Of a DNA stretch of 36,385 bases, positions 24,640 through 30,393 are shown piece by piece. The notes beneath the pieces were generated by a model. That model saw only the letters and a list, made by a program, of their open reading frames with translations. It did not search any database and was not told the origin of the DNA. This DNA comes from a virus (lineage: Duplodnaviria; Heunggongvirae; Uroviricota; Caudoviricetes). The stretch lies in the IMG/VR virus record IMGVR_UViG_2698536369_000022. The stretch is one strand, 5' to 3'. Every line of letters begins with the position of its first letter. Position 1 is the first letter of the stretch. Both the position numbers and the translations under genes were made by a program.

Positions 24640-25179
24640 TCAGGTGTTATTTTTATCTGTCGTCAGTGGGCTAAACCATCCACAATTTACATCGCAGGAC
24701 TGATGCGTTCTGTCCTCGTGTTTCTCCTGCCACAATGCTTTTCCGCCAGCCTTTATGATGGCTCTTTCAACATCCCGCTCGTATCGCAAGGGCTGAAATA
24801 CGTCATTAATGAAATATTCGCTTATGTCCGGAAGCGATACTGCAAGATTATTTGTTTGTTGCGCCGTCCGGCTATGCAGCAAAGCGGCATACTTTAATGC
24901 GTCCTGTGCTTTCTGGAATTTAAGTGCATAGTCAGTGGCGATTTTTTCCAGTTCAGCGATGCGATTTTTTGCTGTTTCCAGTTCATCCAGCAGTGCCAGC
25001 ATGTCTTCCGGTCCAGCCAGAAGTCTGAAGGTGTTGATCGCGTCAATATCCACACCGTAATCTTTAAGTTCCTGTTCGCTTAACAAATCATCATCAACTG
25101 GCAATATTAACAGGCGTTCCATTGCCGGAATTGCACGTTCTGCTGCCATTTGTAGTGCCTGATAGTCAATTTTGCTCAC
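24640..25179 (-). CDS. Ead/Ea22-like family protein (paralogue 1)
   Basis: MSKIDYQALQMAAERA..MLALLDELETAKNRIAELEK shares N-terminal module with the adjacent gene. Confidence 0.55.
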   Translation of the reverse strand: MSKIDYQALQMAAERAIPAMERLLILPVDDDLLSEQELKDYGVDIDAINTFRLLAGPEDMLALLDELETAKNRIAELEKIATDYALKFQKAQDALKYAALLHSRTAQQTNNLAVSLPDISEYFINDVFQPLRYERDVERAIIKAGGKALWQEKHEDRTHQSCDVNCGWFSPLTTDKNNT

Positions 25180-25751
25180 TGACTGCCTCCTTTACGTAGC
25201 TCGGCGGCAAAAGCTACTGCGTGATCATGATGTTCAAGTGTGTATGCACACTCCGCAAACATCTCCACGCCCTGCGCCCGCACTTCAGCCAGGAAAGCAT
25301 CGGTGGCTGGAATGGGCTTTTGTGGTGATATAGCAATGCGAATTGTCTCAAGGTCTGGAGCTGTTTCCGCTGTTGGCACCTTGATATAACCCGTCTGCAC
25401 CCCATTCATGATGAACCTGCGACGGTCATCACATATCGCCTTAAGCCCTGCATTCTCCGCCGCCAGCGCCGCACGACTGGCCTCCAGTTCAGCAATGCGT
25501 TTGTTTTGGGCTTCCCGTTCATCCAGCAGCGCCTGCACTACTTCAGGGTTGAAAGCTGCGATATAACGAGCATTAGCAGCAGCTTTTTTCTGTCCATCAA
25601 ACCCAGGCCATTTGATAACATCTTCGCATCGTTTATCACCTGGCGTATGCACCGCATACGTACCAGTACCCGGCGAAATAAATGCGACCCATTCGCCCTG
25701 TGTTGCCTGTTTTGCTAACTCACGCAGTGCCTGATAGTTGATTTCGCTCAT
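25176..25751 (-). CDS. Ead/Ea22-like family protein (paralogue 2)
   Basis: MSEINYQALRELAKQATQGEW...NARYIAAFNPEVVQALLDEREAQNKRIAELE; family name from memory of prophage annotations. Confidence 0.55.
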   Translation of the reverse strand: MSEINYQALRELAKQATQGEWVAFISPGTGTYAVHTPGDKRCEDVIKWPGFDGQKKAAANARYIAAFNPEVVQALLDEREAQNKRIAELEASRAALAAENAGLKAICDDRRRFIMNGVQTGYIKVPTAETAPDLETIRIAISPQKPIPATDAFLAEVRAQGVEMFAECAYTLEHHDHAVAFAAELRKGGSQ

Positions 25752-25814
25752 TAAGTCGGTCTCCTTGTTTATGTTCTGAGGTGGAGATCAGGGCGAACTC
25801 GCCCTGACGTTGTG

Positions 25815-26126
25815 TTATTCAGGAAATAACGCCCTGATATTTCCGGCCATCTGACTGGTTATCTGTGCGGTTGGTACTGGCTGTGAGTCGGGGCGTTCTG
25901 TCCTGGTTTGTGTCACTGATAACGCCTCATCATCAGCCCATGCAGCCAGTCGGTAAGCCTCTGCCGGATTCATTTTCAGAAGTGCCAGCCCAGCCAGAAA
26001 AGCCACGCGTTGGCCGCTTTTGCGGGCTTCTGGTGTAAGGCTGTCCAGCCATGCGCATGCTTCGCCTTCGTTCTTGACGGCGGCGGGCTTCAGATAGAAA
26101 CTTATCCGTCTGGTTGGTGTCGTCAT
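25815..26126 (-). CDS. parR: ParR-like adaptor/repressor of a type II partition system
   Basis: From internal Met: MTTPTRRISFYLKPAAV..AWLDSLTPEARKSGQRVAFLAGLALL resembles R1 ParR N-terminus (..RRTIAFKLNPD..LDSIPQGERS..RAALTAGLAL); immediately downstream of the parM-like gene. Confidence 0.55.
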   Translation of the reverse strand: MTTPTRRISFYLKPAAVKNEGEACAWLDSLTPEARKSGQRVAFLAGLALLKMNPAEAYRLAAWADDEALSVTQTRTERPDSQPVPTAQITSQMAGNIRALFPE

Positions 26127-26130
26127 TGGT

Positions 26131-27090
26131 TTACTCCTTGTCCATTGCGTACAGCCCATTAACCAGAGCAAACTGTGGCACCCCGTCCGCGATGAAAGTC
26201 GCATTAACTCCGCAGGCTTCGCGGATAGCGGGTGCCACAATCTCCGCCCCTCCACCGACAACCATCACCCGCCCGTAACCCGAAAAAACCGCCAGCGCGC
26301 GGATCACGCGTTGTTTCAGTGTTTCTTCCTTTTCACGAATAACCGCCATCAGGCTGTTGTAATGCGCGTCATTGTGGATGTGCTGGCGCAGCCAGGCTTC
26401 ATCATGGCGATGTTCGATAATGGTATTGGCGATGTGGTGACTGGTACGCATACCGTTAGTGGCCATCACCGACAGTACGGCATCGGCCATCAGGGAAACG
26501 CCTACGTGTGGATCGCAAAACACCTGGCTGATACCTGCCAGTTGTCCCTGAACCTTTGCCACATCCAGCGTGGTTCCGCCTAAATCCACAATCAGCAGGG
26601 ATTCAAACGGACTCATGTCAGCCAGTGCCTTAAAGCCAGCCGGAATGGATTCAGGCATAACCCGTACGTTGCGGATAGTGAATGCCTCACTGTTCTGATA
26701 CTCCACCGGGCGCATAACGTTCGCTTTTTTGCGGTTGATGTTGGCCATGTCCGGCTGGGCGTTTGTGTCGAAATACTCGCTCAGTGGCAGGGTGACAACC
26801 ACATCCACCTCCTGTGGCGTGATGCCTGATTTGACCAGCGCATGATGAATGGCAATGACATTCACATCGCTGTACTGGTATTGCGTGTCGGTCGTCTGGA
26901 CAAAGCGATCGCTGACCGGATCAAAACCATAGCGCACGCCATCAAGCATGTAGTTCGCGGGCTGCATGCCACCGAACGGCGCAGACCATTCCGACTTGAA
27001 GCTGTTCGGGCTGATGGCGTTGCGGCGTTCGCCGTTCTCAGTCCATGCCAGCTTGATGTTGGTGGAGCCGTCGTCGATGTGAATTTTCAT
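26131..27090 (-). CDS. parM: ParM/StbA-family actin-like ATPase
   Basis: MKIHIDDGSTNIKLAW, ISPNSFK, YSDVNVIAIHHALVKSG, NRKKAN, VRVMPESIPAG, LLIVDLGGTTLDVAKV, VMVVGGGAE and ALVNGLY align with R1 ParM motifs as I recall them. Confidence 0.75.
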   Translation of the reverse strand: MKIHIDDGSTNIKLAWTENGERRNAISPNSFKSEWSAPFGGMQPANYMLDGVRYGFDPVSDRFVQTTDTQYQYSDVNVIAIHHALVKSGITPQEVDVVVTLPLSEYFDTNAQPDMANINRKKANVMRPVEYQNSEAFTIRNVRVMPESIPAGFKALADMSPFESLLIVDLGGTTLDVAKVQGQLAGISQVFCDPHVGVSLMADAVLSVMATNGMRTSHHIANTIIEHRHDEAWLRQHIHNDAHYNSLMAVIREKEETLKQRVIRALAVFSGYGRVMVVGGGAEIVAPAIREACGVNATFIADGVPQFALVNGLYAMDKE

Positions 27091-27121
27091 GTCGCTTTTC
27101 CTTATGTTGATTAATTAATCG

Positions 27122-27148
27122 TTTACGGGATTTTTAAATCCCGTTTTT
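27122..27148. repeat. Palindrome TTTACGGGATTT-TT-AAATCCCGTTTT upstream of parM
   Basis: 9-bp perfect inverted arms with 2-bp spacer in the 76-bp gap between the A stop and parM start. Confidence 0.6.
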
Positions 27149-27166
27149 GCCTGTTTTATGCGCGCT

Positions 27167-30007
27167 TCATATATCGCGGCGCGTTTTTTGCTCATTTACG
27201 GGATTTGTGAATCCCGTTTCTGTCTGTTTTTTGTTTCCACTGGTCAGGCCACCCCGCAGCAGGTCTGCTTTGCGGCGGGCGCGTTCAGTGGTTTCACTGA
27301 TTCTCTGTGCGTGCTCTGCGTCGCGGATGGCGCGCAGCATGTCAGAAAGCACGGTAACGGGTGTTTTCATGGTGTTCTGGTCTTGCTGAAGTGTGGATGC
27401 CAGGCGTGCGGCGGCTTCGGGGTCTGATGCCCCCAGCTGTTCCAGATAGCTGGCGATCGGGTTATGGCGGATCTCCGTGCTGCTTACGCCGTGGTTACGG
27501 CTCAGGCGCTGCCAGAGCTGCGTGATCCGTCTGTCCGGTCGGGTATCCGGTTTGCGTACAATTTCAAATTCCTGCGGTGCAATGATGCTGCCGTCAACGT
27601 ACAGGCTGCCGCCCCGTAACAGGTGCTGCATCTGCTGTTCACCGATATGCAGGCCGAGAGATTCGGCAGATTCCCGCCATTCTTTAGCGAGTAATTCGTG
27701 GTTATCAGGCAAAGGCCGCTGCTGTTTGCGGCTCTGTGTCCAGCTCTGCATTTCATCACTGCTGTTTTTTGCCTGTTTGTCACGAAGCGAACGCATCAGC
27801 GCCCGGCGTTCGTGCCGTTTCAGTGAGCGCATCCATTCGTTCACTTCAACGCCGTCAGGGAGCTGCGGCCACGGTGCTGGCCGTTCTTCCGGCTGTTCTG
27901 TCCCGTTGTTGTCCGTTTCCTGTACACGGGGACAGTTATTGCCACGAGTCCAAGGGGCGGCAGGGCCGCCCTGAAGGTCAAAACCATTTTCGCGGGCGCT
28001 GTCTTCCGCTTCCGGTTTGCGTCTTACCAGCTTCCAGTTATCCGGATGCGTGCATACGCGGGAAGACTCCCCAATGAGCGGCGACCAGATCCCGTAAATC
28101 TGTACGCTCTGTTCACCGTAATCGTTCAGCTCATCTGCGAGGTCGTAGGCGGTGCGAATCAGGTAGTCTTTGCGTGGAACAAGTACGCCACCCTGTTTCT
28201 CAATGTAGGTGGCAAAACATCCGGCATCAGCGGCAGCGAGTACCGCGTCCATTGCGTCATCCTTCAGCCGTTGCGGGCCTTCCGGGTTGCGTGCCATCTG
28301 GCTGGCAAGGCGGCGCAGTTCACGCCACACCTGACGGGAGGGGATACCAAAGAACTGGAACTGGCGGACCCGGTGAAGGCGCGCCCAGCCGATGGCGCGT
28401 TCCACGCTCTCGGCCATTGATTTTCCGGTTTCGTGGTCAACGCGTGGCTTGCCCGTTTTCGGGTCGATGCCATCTACGGCGCGGCTGTCCAGGTTTTTTC
28501 CGATGTAGGTCGCGATATAGCTGGTTGGTGTGCCTTTTGAGCCGTCGACATACTCCGCCTTAAAGCGCGGAGTAATATCATTGCCCAGCTCGTGGCGGTC
28601 TTCCTGAATGGCAATATCGCGGGTGATGACCACGATGCTGTCGATTTCTTCCGGATGAGCAAAGACCATCATATGCCAGTGCACGGTGCCGTCATGGTGA
28701 GGCTCCACCGTGCGGATGCCATACCAGCGAAGACCGTCGCGGCTCAGTTTTTTGCGGACCGCCGCAAAAAACGTGTTAACCAGGTAATCGCTGGAGTCGC
28801 GCATGGTGGCCCCGTTCCATTTGGGGTTCGGATGACCGTTCTCCGTTGTTGCGTGGTATTTTGACGGGCAGGTGACAGTCAGAAACACCGCTCTGTCGCC
28901 ACGGGCTTCGGCCAGAAGTTCCAGTCCTTTCATGGTGGCCATCATTTCTGCCTTACGGTGAACCGGGTTACTTACTCCCGCGTAATACACTGTCTCGAGA
29001 TCAATCGTGAACCCGTCTTCATTTTCCAGCATGAAACTTTTCAGGAAATCGCGTGTTTTCTCGCGCTGTGCGCGAAACTCGCTTAACGCGTCCTGGCTCA
29101 GATAGGGTGATGTTTTTCTGGAAACCAGACAGGCGGCGCGGCGTTGTTCTTCTCTCCACTCGCAACGTAACAGCCACAGTTTGCGTTTCCACCAGTCCGC
29201 ACAGGTCAGGCGAAGGATTGCGCCCGGCAGCAGTTCTGTGTCCGGTTCGTTCCTCCGGTCTTTGTCTGTTGTCAGTGCGTCATAATGTGGCGGCATGGCG
29301 TGCAGGTGTAACGCCATTCGGGCCAGCATCTGATACGCCTTCAGCGCCACTTCCATGGTCAGCTCACCATCGGTCGCGCCAAAGCCATCGCAGAGTGTCT
29401 CGAAGGTGCTGCTGAACATTGCCGCCGTCATGGTGGCCAGTGTCTGTATCTGGTGTTTGTTGAGCTGCGGCAGGTACAGCAAATCGTCCAGGCGTTCGCG
29501 CCCGGCAAGGGAGCGATAACCCGGTGTCAGCCAGCGTCCGTCAGTGCGATCCAGACGTTCGAATATTTTGCGCAGGGTTCCGCGTGCATAGCGTTCAGCC
29601 TGCCAGCTCTTTTTGCCTTTCTGGCGATCGGCTTCCTGTTTTTTGCGCAGGAAAGAGAGGTGGCAGCTCAGTGGTTCACGCAGATAAACAGGTAGTGCCT
29701 TTAGTGTGGCAAAGGCACGGGCTACTGGGTCTTGTTCTGTTGCCCGGCGCTTACTGATGATGCTCTGTGCCAGCTTTTCACGCTGTCCGGCTTCCTCAAG
29801 GGATGCCATGAGTTTTTTACCCATGGCGGATTGTGCGAAAAAGGCTTCTTCCTTCGCTTCCTGTTCTTCCTGTGCCCTTTTGTCTGCCTCAAGGTAGTAA
29901 CGGATGGCGCGTTGCAGGTCGGTTTCAGTTTCCTGCCTGTGCTCCGTAAATCTGGCCGGATCAATGGCTGGCCGTGGTTCATTCCAGCTCCATGCAAACT
30001 CATTCAT
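27167..30007 (-). CDS. A: Replication initiation protein A (rolling-circle endonuclease, GPA family)
   Basis: About 946 aa from the internal MNEFAWSW Met (ATGA overlap with the upstream ORF); contains HDGTVHWHMMVF HUH-like motif; position in the early operon as P2 A. Confidence 0.8.
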   Translation of the reverse strand: MNEFAWSWNEPRPAIDPARFTEHRQETETDLQRAIRYYLEADKRAQEEQEAKEEAFFAQSAMGKKLMASLEEAGQREKLAQSIISKRRATEQDPVARAFATLKALPVYLREPLSCHLSFLRKKQEADRQKGKKSWQAERYARGTLRKIFERLDRTDGRWLTPGYRSLAGRERLDDLLYLPQLNKHQIQTLATMTAAMFSSTFETLCDGFGATDGELTMEVALKAYQMLARMALHLHAMPPHYDALTTDKDRRNEPDTELLPGAILRLTCADWWKRKLWLLRCEWREEQRRAACLVSRKTSPYLSQDALSEFRAQREKTRDFLKSFMLENEDGFTIDLETVYYAGVSNPVHRKAEMMATMKGLELLAEARGDRAVFLTVTCPSKYHATTENGHPNPKWNGATMRDSSDYLVNTFFAAVRKKLSRDGLRWYGIRTVEPHHDGTVHWHMMVFAHPEEIDSIVVITRDIAIQEDRHELGNDITPRFKAEYVDGSKGTPTSYIATYIGKNLDSRAVDGIDPKTGKPRVDHETGKSMAESVERAIGWARLHRVRQFQFFGIPSRQVWRELRRLASQMARNPEGPQRLKDDAMDAVLAAADAGCFATYIEKQGGVLVPRKDYLIRTAYDLADELNDYGEQSVQIYGIWSPLIGESSRVCTHPDNWKLVRRKPEAEDSARENGFDLQGGPAAPWTRGNNCPRVQETDNNGTEQPEERPAPWPQLPDGVEVNEWMRSLKRHERRALMRSLRDKQAKNSSDEMQSWTQSRKQQRPLPDNHELLAKEWRESAESLGLHIGEQQMQHLLRGGSLYVDGSIIAPQEFEIVRKPDTRPDRRITQLWQRLSRNHGVSSTEIRHNPIASYLEQLGASDPEAAARLASTLQQDQNTMKTPVTVLSDMLRAIRDAEHAQRISETTERARRKADLLRGGLTSGNKKQTETGFTNPVNEQKTRRDI
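27195..27220. repeat. Second copy of the palindrome (ACGGGATT-TGTG-AATCCCGT) inside the 3' end of gene A
   Basis: Near-identical arms about 73 bp from the first copy; encodes TGFTNPV of the A protein C-terminus. Confidence 0.6.
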
Positions 30008-30393
30008 GGCTGGTATCCCGTCACGCGCTGCCACTCCTGCGAGAAGAGGGCAGAAAGGCGGTTAAATTCAGCGGTGTATTCACTCAGCGAGGCACACCCG
30101 CCAGCAGTGCGATGCGCCAGCATTGCCGCAAATACGGAGGCCGGGGAGTCGTAATACGCCAGCAGTGATTCTCCGTGTGGTGTCAGGCAGTGCAACGCCA
30201 GCCCGTGTGGTGTGAAGTCCACGCGGTAGCAGTCGTCTACTGTGAAATAAAGGGTGTCTGCATTCTCCGGTTTTGTGGTGCGTGCTCTGTTGTCACGACC
30301 ACGGATGTAGAGATCAAATAATCCCTGAAGAACGGGAGCCAGACGGGTGTCCTGTGTGCGCACCCATCTTGTGAAGTCATGAGCGTCAATCAT
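30004..30393 (-). CDS. Hypothetical protein (129 aa), coupled upstream of A
   Basis: Protein-like ORF whose stop overlaps the A start; no recognised motif. Confidence 0.55.
   Translation of the reverse strand: MIDAHDFTRWVRTQDTRLAPVLQGLFDLYIRGRDNRARTTKPENADTLYFTVDDCYRVDFTPHGLALHCLTPHGESLLAYYDSPASVFAAMLAHRTAGGCASLSEYTAEFNRLSALFSQEWQRVTGYQP

What the first reader, a model, noticed from the sequence alone, without database searches (positions are those of the whole stretch)
27122..27220. Twin palindromes (ACGGGATTT..AAATCCCGT) upstream of parM, one embedded in the A coding sequence
Two near-identical inverted repeats about 73 bp apart flank the end of gene A; the second is maintained inside coding sequence, implying selection at the DNA level. 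They are candidate ParR operator or centromere-like sites, or another dimeric regulator's operators. On the plus strand each is followed by a T-run and would also fold as a terminator, but no plus-strand gene ends here.
Basis: seen in the sequence. Interest (0 to 1): 0.4.

Follow-up and report, generated by a model that had tools for sequence, protein, structure and literature searches.

The report
Likely centromere of a phage ParMR module
Two 20-bp palindromes just upstream of a plasmid-type parM-parR partition operon in a P2-like (P88-type) E. coli prophage are most likely where the ParR adaptor protein binds, that is the module's centromere or operator; this is an unannotated but expected part of a known kind of system.

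Summary
ACGGGATT-N4-AATCCCGT occurs at 27125-27144 and 27198-27217, 73 bp apart, and forms the core of a 42-nt direct repeat.

The window is a P88-like (Xuanwuvirus, P2-like) phage. Gene A is followed on the minus strand by parM (R1-type actin-like ATPase) and parR (PF10784, ribbon-helix-helix).

The palindromes travel with parMR, not with A:
- A relative with the same A but other cargo lacks them.
- Another relative has a different upstream ORF that reads into the same tail.

The "coding" palindrome is therefore module DNA that the A reading frame runs into.

In Hafnia and Plesiomonas P2-like prophages (ParM 62% identical) the perfect palindromes, hairpins and T-runs are gone. Exactly two GGG-N10-CCC cores remain, 72-73 bp apart, at the same distance from parM. 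That is conservation at the DNA level with helical phasing.

No compensatory changes, Rfam match or conserved terminator were found.

Best reading (about 0.6): a bipartite, palindromic parC/operator bound by ParR. Binding itself is untested. It is a new variant of a known kind and of modest interest.

The parts
27125..27144 (.). Proximal palindrome ACGGGATT-TTTA-AATCCCGT, intergenic, centred 44.5 bp upstream of the parM ATG; proposed ParR site 1
   Evidence: Present at -54 in 78 of 79 related IMG/VR loci. The central GG/CC pairs are invariant in all 15 distinct variants. A GGG-N10-CCC core sits at the equivalent position in Hafnia and Plesiomonas.
27198..27217 (.). Distal palindrome ACGGGATT-TGTG-AATCCCGT, inside the last ~17 codons of the A ORF; proposed ParR site 2
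   Evidence: Present at -127 in 77 of 79 loci. Its core is conserved 72-73 bp from the proximal one in four lineages. It is absent from the UMNK88 relative, which has the same A but no parMR.
27119..27160 (.). Proximal copy of the 42-nt direct repeat (palindrome plus flanks; A-rich 5' flank on the parM-sense strand)
   Evidence: family D3.
27192..27233 (.). Distal copy of the 42-nt direct repeat; its outer edge (~27233) is the left boundary of the parMR module
   Evidence: D3. In L082 homology to a different upstream gene ends at AAAAACAGACA. This is the most conserved stretch of the region in 95 haplotypes (-140 to -131).
27145..27197 (.). 53-bp spacer between the palindromes; contains the A stop codon (27167-27169); variable in relatives; no consensus promoter
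26131..27090 (-). parM, actin-like partition ATPase (319 aa)
   Evidence: Pfam StbA_N 1.2e-81 and ParM C-terminal domain 6.8e-69. R1 ParM structure 1mwk E=5.6e-92. PHROG 'partition protein'.
25815..26126 (-). parR, ribbon-helix-helix adaptor (103 aa); invariant N-terminal RRISFYLKP strand and C-terminal NIxxLFPE tail
   Evidence: PF10784 1.7e-24. A profile of 20 homologues hits the pB171 ParR structure 2JD3 at E=0.0018. Alignment A4.
27167..27226 (-). Last 19 codons (QTETGFTNPVNEQKTRRDI) plus stop of the A ORF: a read-in tail encoded by module DNA, not native A sequence
   Evidence: The UMNK88 A ends ...GKGNSEKKK* about where this tail begins. In L082 a different 157-aa ORF acquires the same tail. 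The L032 deletion variant ends ...KQTKTGFKNPVTD*.
27109..27138 (-). Weak candidate parM promoter: -35 TTTAAA in the centre of the proximal palindrome, 17 bp, ATTAAT
   Evidence: My own rough position-weight-matrix scan gave 7.3 bits, against 9.2 for an R1-like promoter scored the same way. It was not found by the stricter consensus scan. Inference only.

Best explanation
The two palindromes are the cis-acting site (parC centromere and probably operator) of a type II ParMR partition module carried by this P2-like phage directly downstream of replication gene A. Proposed mechanism: ParR, a ribbon-helix-helix dimer, reads the GGG/CCC half-sites with its N-terminal beta-strand (RRISFYLKP). Two dimers would sit on each 20-bp palindrome. 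The two palindromes lie 73 bp apart, about 7.0 helical turns, so both complexes face the same side, like the two iteron blocks of R1 parC. The conserved C-terminal tail of ParR then captures growing ParM filaments, which move or position copies of the phage DNA. The proximal site may also repress a weak parM promoter. Shown here: the genes are ParM and ParR; the sites belong to their module; a twin core with fixed spacing is conserved at the DNA level. Inferred: ParR binding, stoichiometry, phasing effect, autoregulation and partition activity.
For: (1) Gene identity. parM matches Pfam StbA_N and the ParM C-terminal domain, and R1 ParM structures at 5.6e-92. parR matches PF10784 and the pB171 ParR structure 2JD3.
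(2) Position. The sites lie directly upstream of parM, where plasmid relatives sampled here carry their repeats and where R1 parC lies (PMC2241845).
(3) Module linkage. UMNK88 has the same A but an AAA ATPase and S8 peptidase instead of parMR, and no palindromes; homology to the window is lost about 27252-27270. In L082 a different upstream ORF joins at the edge of the distal repeat.
(4) Conservation. E. coli/Cronobacter, a Hafnia MAG (ParM 93% identical), Hafnia (62%) and Plesiomonas (62%) each have exactly two GGG-N10-CCC. They lie at -125/-52, -124/-51, -128/-55 and -131/-59, spacing 73, 73, 73 and 72. This holds although the inner bases, the spacer, the reading frame and the upstream gene all differ. 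Such a twin arose in at most 1 of 20,000 shuffles, and there are only 5 such motifs in the whole 36-kb window.
(5) Variation. In 78 haplotypes the central GG/CC pairs never vary and the centres vary most.
(6) Reader residues. The ParR strand RRISFYLKP is invariant across alleles that are only 52-95% identical overall. Relatives with NRKISFYL have a different dyad architecture.
(7) Specificity. Two copies of the core were found only beside parM in the IMG/VR sample.
(8) Precedent. A palindromic parC bound by its ParR is known for a chromosomal C. botulinum system (PMC12270681).
Against: No binding or partition data exist. There are only four half-sites, whereas R1 has ten iterons and its plasmid relatives carry arrays of about 11-bp direct repeats (PMC2241845). 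No good sigma-70 promoter lies between or after the sites, so the classic autoregulated-promoter layout is not evident, and parMR may simply be read through from the early operon. Serratia/Enterobacter relatives have a different upstream architecture, so the motif is not universal for phage parMR. One natural variant (L032) has lost one copy. In the E. coli lineage the sites are also good hairpins followed by T-runs on the + strand. The cross-lineage evidence rests on four lineages.
Confidence: 0.6

Rival explanations
1. Tandem intrinsic terminators on the + strand (antisense to A and parM). They would stop antisense transcription entering the early operon, for example read-through from the convergent terminase/portal operon or from cargo genes.
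For: Both score as terminator-like on the + strand: 8-bp stem, 4-nt loop, then TTTTTGCC or TTTCTGTCTGTTTTTT. Hairpin energy is about -10.2 kcal/mol, z about -3.2. The A-run/T-run flank is kept in E. coli-like and Hafnia-MAG variants.
Against: No + strand gene ends nearby; in P88 the nearest + strand genes, portal and terminase, lie more than 2 kb away behind several minus-strand genes. In Hafnia and Plesiomonas no terminator-like site is found at the equivalent positions, and three of the four elements there fold no better than shuffles, the Plesiomonas proximal one being the exception, yet the GGG-N10-CCC twin persists. Stem polymorphisms give G.U-type mispairs on the + strand in one palindrome and on the - strand in the other.
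Confidence: 0.1
2. Sense-strand mRNA hairpins in the A-parM transcript that act in RNA processing, stability or translational control of parM.
For: On the - strand each folds at -10.7 or -11.0 kcal/mol, z -4.3 and -4.7. They bracket the A stop codon and precede the parM ribosome-binding site.
Against: There is not one compensatory double change in 78 haplotypes, and single-sided changes break pairs. In Hafnia and Plesiomonas only the 3-4 bp GGG/CCC core still pairs (the Plesiomonas proximal element gains extra flanking pairs), with z -0.2 to -2.0 on the sense strand. No Rfam family matches.
Confidence: 0.1
3. Operators for a dimeric DNA-binding protein other than ParR, either a phage or a host regulator.
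For: Dyad symmetry and fixed spacing point to protein binding but do not identify the protein.
Against: The sites co-occur strictly with parMR and are missing when the same A gene carries other cargo. ParR is the only DNA-binding protein encoded in the module. The sites show no resemblance to the P2 Cox, C or Ogr site patterns as I recall them (own knowledge, not tested).
Confidence: 0.1
4. A functionless duplication or recombination scar at a module junction: a 73-bp duplication that copied an older single hairpin.
For: The 42-nt direct repeat is 86% identical. A natural variant has cleanly lost one unit (L032). The distal copy sits exactly at the module boundary.
Against: The twin arrangement with the same spacing is retained in lineages whose ParM is only 62% identical and whose intervening sequence has diverged. 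This is not expected for a neutral scar.
Confidence: 0.05

Closest known systems
parC of plasmid R1/NR1 (ParMRC, stb locus)
   Same: It lies directly upstream of parM-parR. It is bipartite, with two ParR-binding blocks separated by a spacer. The ParR belongs to the same Pfam family (PF10784). R1-like iterons sampled here have an A-rich stretch followed by CCC (L116), which resembles the right half of each phage element. By my arithmetic the block centres are a whole number of helical turns apart in both: 94 bp in R1 (from PMC2241845) and 73 bp here.
   Different: R1 has 2 x 5 direct 11-bp iterons flanking a clear promoter in a 39-bp spacer (PMC2241845). Here there are only two 20-bp palindromes (four inverted half-sites), a 53-bp spacer without a recognisable promoter, and one site inside the upstream ORF. 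The host replicon is an integrating P2-like phage, not a plasmid.
pB171 ParR (StbB) and its parC (structure 2JD3)
   Same: The ParR profile built here aligns to 2JD3 over residues 9-74 (E=0.0018), so the same ribbon-helix-helix adaptor fold is expected.
   Different: The sequence relationship is remote. As I recall, the pB171 centromere is an iteron array; this was not tested here.
Chromosomal cParCMR of Clostridium botulinum (PMC12270681)
   Same: A parC made of a few palindromic repeats, shown by EMSA to bind its ParR; it lies on a chromosome rather than a plasmid.
   Different: It has three palindromic repeats and an unrelated sequence. The paper's text and its figure legend differ on placement relative to the genes. 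The ParM/ParR pair is distant and Gram-positive. No phage context is described.
AlpAC/alpS of Corynebacterium prophage CGP3 (PMC4446434)
   Same: A prophage-encoded actin-like filament plus an adaptor that binds repeats upstream of its own operon; it is needed for efficient phage DNA replication. This is the best functional analogue for what a phage might do with such a module.
   Different: The gene order is adaptor first. There are 24 short TTAAnnG repeats. The proteins are unrelated in sequence and the phage type differs.
Arc/Mnt-type ribbon-helix-helix operators (own knowledge)
   Same: Two ribbon-helix-helix dimers bind inverted half-sites about one helical turn apart on a ~21-bp dyad, which is the geometry proposed for each palindrome.
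   Different: They are repressor operators, not centromeres. This is an analogy only and was not tested.

Membership tests
Type II (ParMRC) partition locus | Actin-like ATPase ParM | tested here: met
   Pfam StbA_N 1.2e-81 and ParM C-terminal domain 6.8e-69. R1 ParM structures at E=5.6e-92.
Type II (ParMRC) partition locus | Small ribbon-helix-helix adaptor ParR encoded directly downstream of parM, with a C-terminal ParM-binding tail | tested here: met
   PF10784 1.7e-24. Profile hit to pB171 ParR 2JD3. parR starts 4 nt after the parM stop. Invariant N-terminal strand and C-terminal NIxxLFPE, with a predicted C-terminal helix 86-100. That the tail binds ParM is inferred.
Type II (ParMRC) partition locus | Repeated cis sites (parC) upstream of parM that travel with the module | tested here: met
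   Two repeats at -127 and -54. They are module-linked. The twin core is conserved in four lineages.
Type II (ParMRC) partition locus | R1-type architecture: arrays of ~11-bp direct iterons flanking the par promoter | tested here: not met
   There are only two palindromic 20-mers, and no consensus promoter in the spacer. Plasmid relatives do show such arrays.
Type II (ParMRC) partition locus | ParR binds parC specifically; the locus stabilises a replicon and exerts incompatibility | not testable with these tools
   Needs EMSA or footprinting and plasmid-stability assays.
Intrinsic (Rho-independent) terminator | G+C-containing stem-loop followed by a U-run | tested here: met
   Met on the + strand only. 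On the sense strand the tail is AAAUGAGC or UAAACGAU.
Intrinsic (Rho-independent) terminator | Lies at the end of a transcription unit on that strand, and is conserved as hairpin plus U-run in orthologous positions | tested here: not met
   No + strand gene lies upstream. No terminator-like site is found in Hafnia or Plesiomonas at the equivalent place.
Structured RNA element | Base pairs maintained by compensatory changes; match to a curated family | tested here: not met
   0 compensatory pairs in 78 haplotypes. Only one sub-threshold Rfam hit, 16 bits against a gathering score of 100.
P2-type replication origin (A nick site inside gene A) | Cis site that travels with gene A | tested here: not met
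   The UMNK88 prophage keeps a closely related A (91.5% nucleotide identity over its 3' 450 bp) but lacks both palindromes.

The most novel reading that the evidence does not exclude
This is a minimal, palindromic, phage-type centromere: four ParR half-sites in two phased 20-mers, partly overlapping whatever ORF lies upstream. With ParMR it would actively position or partition replicating, or transiently episomal, P2-like phage genomes. About a quarter of complete E. coli genomes (1376 of 5426), including O157:H7 EDL933, would then carry a plasmid-type centromere in the chromosome. The strongly diverged ParR alleles with invariant DNA-reading and ParM-binding ends could reflect selection for mutually compatible modules among co-resident prophages.
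Probability: 0.3. Interest if true: 0.5.

Novelty: new variant of a known kind. Interest (0 to 1): 0.33.

Why it matters
The parM and parR genes of P88-like prophages are routinely annotated. Their cis site is not, and I found no paper describing it or the role of ParMR in P2-like phages.

If the twin palindromes are the centromere, they give a compact and precisely defined target of about 95 bp. The target has natural variants, including a one-copy deletion. It could be used to ask why an integrating, rolling-circle-replicating phage carries a plasmid partition machine. It could also show how few ParR sites suffice to engage ParM filaments.

The result also illustrates how cis elements of mobile modules can end up "inside" neighbouring genes simply because the upstream ORF reads into them.

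Tried and rejected
(1) Small gene. A 26-aa ORF (27115-27195, minus strand) repeats the A tail in the same frame (TGFKNPVND against TGFTNPVNE). I rejected it as a gene, and rejected a frameshift product. Substitutions in relatives are mostly non-synonymous for it, the A6 run is too short for slippage, and Hafnia and Plesiomonas have no such ORF.

(2) Protein-level conservation of the A tail. The element is read in different frames and by different ORFs in other lineages.

(3) RNA structure. There is no covariation and no Rfam match. Hairpins are not conserved across lineages.

(4) Long hairpin. The whole 141 nt folds into one long hairpin by pairing the two palindromes, -41 kcal/mol on the + strand. 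This recalls the long inverted repeat of the Serratia-type relatives. Hafnia and Plesiomonas do not support a common hairpin, so I left it as a curiosity.

(5) Origin of replication or single-strand origin. Rejected because the sites are absent from a relative with the same A.

(6) Promoter between the sites. None was found by the consensus scan. Only a weak candidate overlaps the proximal site.

(7) Co-variation of palindrome variants with ParR alleles. The variants are shared among alleles, so this was uninformative.

(8) AlphaFold2 of the ParR monomer gave pLDDT 54, too poor for a fold search, so none was run. A single-sequence PDB search for ParR found nothing; only the profile found 2JD3.

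(9) Defence-system reading of parMR. There are no PADLOC hits.

(10) Viral-contig searches seeded with Hafnia or Plesiomonas ParM found almost nothing. The genome-contig scan mostly returned plasmid-type loci.
Full report
**What is there**

The window is a P88-like (Xuanwuvirus, Peduoviridae) P2-type phage. The region 25800-27700 is 94-98% identical to phages PhiR44_2, P88, Shae_phiSM and others. It matches 1376 of 5426 complete E. coli genomes, almost always on the chromosome.

On the minus strand, replication gene A (27167-30034, Phage_GPA 1.6e-129) is followed by two genes:
- parM (26131-27090): StbA_N 1.2e-81 and ParM C-terminal domain 6.8e-69; R1 ParM structures at E=5.6e-92.
- parR (25815-26126): PF10784 at 1.7e-24; a 20-sequence profile hits the pB171 ParR structure 2JD3 at E=0.0018.

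The two palindromes are at 27125-27144 and 27198-27217. Each has 8-bp arms and a 4-nt centre, and they are 73 bp apart. They form the core of a 42-nt direct repeat (27119-27160 and 27192-27233, 86% identical). ACGGGATT occurs 6 times in the window against 1.0 expected.

**Whose sites are they?**

The E. coli UMNK88 prophage has a closely related A but carries an AAA ATPase and an S8 peptidase instead of parMR. Homology to the window ends at about 27252-27270. Its A ends ...GKGNSEKKK*, and neither palindrome is present.

In IMG/VR locus L082 a shorter A is followed by an unrelated 157-aa ORF. That ORF joins the window sequence at AAAAACAGACA, the outer edge of the distal repeat, and acquires the same C-terminal tail ...KQTKTGFTNPVNEQKTRSDI*.

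The roughly 140 bp upstream of parM therefore belongs to the parMR module. The last ~19 codons of "A" are a read-in, not native A sequence. This removes the apparent puzzle of a palindrome maintained inside a coding sequence.

**Population variation**

Of 79 related IMG/VR loci with a complete upstream region, 78 have both palindromes: 77 at -127 and -54 from the parM ATG, and one with the distal copy at -126. The remaining locus (L032) has a clean 73-bp deletion between the repeats.

Across 78 unique haplotypes:
- The central GG/CC pairs never vary, and the 4-nt centres vary most.
- All stem changes are single-sided; there is not one compensatory pair.
- The G.U-compatible strand differs between the two palindromes.

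This gives no support for an RNA structure on either strand. Rfam gives nothing.

**Divergent relatives**

The order A, then parM, then parR recurs in P2-like prophages of a Hafnia MAG (ParM 93% identical), Hafnia (62%), Plesiomonas (62%), Serratia and Enterobacter (53-58%).

In the first three, as in E. coli, Cronobacter and Salmonella, the 260 bp upstream of parM contain exactly two GGG-N10-CCC motifs:

| Lineage | Positions from parM ATG | Spacing (bp) |
|---|---|---|
| E. coli (window) | -125 / -52 | 73 |
| Hafnia MAG | -124 / -51 | 73 |
| Hafnia | -128 / -55 | 73 |
| Plesiomonas | -131 / -59 | 72 |

The bases between GGG and CCC, the spacer, the reading frame and even the upstream gene differ between lineages. 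In Hafnia a 167-aa ORF covers the distal element and stops inside the proximal one.

In the two 62% lineages the equivalent elements are no longer terminator-like. Three of the four fold no better than shuffled sequence; the exception is the Plesiomonas proximal element, which gains extra flanking pairs.

A twin at 70-76 bp arose in at most 1 of 20,000 shuffles of each upstream region. The whole 36-kb window holds only five such motifs.

What is conserved, then, is a pair of short dyad cores at fixed, helically phased spacing. That is the signature of a protein-binding DNA site, not of a hairpin or a neutral duplication.

All these lineages share the ParR strand TRR(I/V)SFYL. Serratia/Enterobacter relatives have NRKISFYL and a different dyad architecture: a 19-21-nt-arm inverted repeat plus CGTTTAAACGG.

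Within Escherichia, ParR alleles range from 52 to 95% identity. They keep RRISFYLKP and the C-terminal NIxxLFPE invariant.

**Comparison with known centromeres**

Plasmid relatives sampled here carry arrays of about 11-bp direct repeats on both sides of a promoter upstream of parM. R1-like loci have an A-rich stretch followed by CCC; others have TTCTC. R1 parC has 2 x 5 iterons with a 39-bp promoter spacer, one ParR dimer per iteron, and an unbound spacer (PMC2241845).

The phage site is bipartite in the same way. It differs in having only two 20-bp palindromes and no recognisable promoter in its 53-bp spacer. A weak candidate promoter has its -35 hexamer in the centre of the proximal palindrome (inference only).

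A palindromic parC bound by its ParR has precedent in a chromosomal C. botulinum system (PMC12270681). A prophage actin-like system with upstream adaptor repeats is known from CGP3 (PMC4446434). I found no description of this phage site.

**Specificity**

- 77 lie in loci that carry parM, nearly all within 250 nt of its start.
- 3 are truncated P88-like contigs.
- 40 are single hits in unrelated contexts, which is about chance level.

Two copies together never occur away from parM.

**Verdict**

The most likely explanation (about 0.6) is a bipartite, palindromic parC/operator for the phage ParR. The remaining probability is divided among:
- + strand terminators (E. coli lineage only);
- sense-strand mRNA hairpins;
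- a different binding protein;
- a functionless scar.

Binding and partition activity are untested. It is a new variant of a known kind of element, of modest, specialist interest.

Noticed in passing
window 27115-27195 (-): A 26-aa ORF, MSKKRAAIYEARIKQAKTGFKNPVND, lies between the palindromes. Its end mirrors the A tail in the same frame. Changes in relatives are mostly non-synonymous, and it is absent in Hafnia and Plesiomonas, so it is probably not a gene.
   Followed up: yes
L032 (IMG/VR), equivalent to window 27145-27217: A natural variant has a clean 73-bp deletion between the two 42-nt repeats. One palindrome remains and A then ends ...KQTKTGFKNPVTD*.
   Followed up: partly
window 25815-26126 (parR); breakpoint near 26072: Escherichia ParR alleles span 52-95% identity while the adjacent ParM stays at about 97-99%. 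The first 18 residues and the last ~8 are invariant and the middle is replaced; EDL933 carries such an allele. This suggests recombination inside parR, or selection on the middle part.
   Followed up: partly
window 25788-25807: A GC-rich palindrome, TCAGGGCGAACTCGCCCTGA, lies 8 nt after the parR stop, before the next gene (Ead/Ea22-like). There is no U-run on the sense strand. It contains GGG-N8-CCC.
   Followed up: no
L087, L092, L134, L135, L215 (about -120 to -35 from parM): Serratia/Enterobacter P2-like prophages have a different upstream architecture. It consists of the inverted repeat GGGAACGAnATAGAAAAAT ... ATTTTTCTnTTTCgTTCCC, a central small palindrome that changes sequence but stays palindromic, and CGTTTAAACGG with TTTAAA placed as a possible -35.
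   Followed up: partly
L002 (E. coli UMNK88), L215, L087, L088: The region after gene A and parMR is a variable cargo site. Different relatives carry an AAA ATPase plus S8 peptidase, a KAP NTPase, HicAB, or a DUF3800 protein. In the window it holds two Ead/Ea22-like genes (24640-25751) with no PADLOC hits.
   Followed up: partly
window 27109-27119 (-); Hafnia L083 and Plesiomonas L086 equivalents: ATTAATCAA, between the proximal element and the parM ribosome-binding site, is conserved in E. coli, Hafnia and Plesiomonas. It could be a -10-like element.
   Followed up: no
window 28086-28099: A 13-of-14 match to the half-site plus flank (ATTTACGGGAT) lies inside gene A, about 880 bp from the distal palindrome. 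It may be chance.
   Followed up: no
L090 (contig labelled Vagococcus sp. WN89Y): This contig carries a 97% identical A-parM-parR module with both palindromes. An enterobacterial prophage in a Gram-positive assembly probably means contamination.
   Followed up: no
window 27105-27245: Folded as one strand, the two palindromes pair with each other rather than with themselves. The result is a ~95-nt hairpin capped by a GCGCGC...GCGCG stem, at -41 kcal/mol on the + strand and -33 on the - strand.
   Followed up: partly
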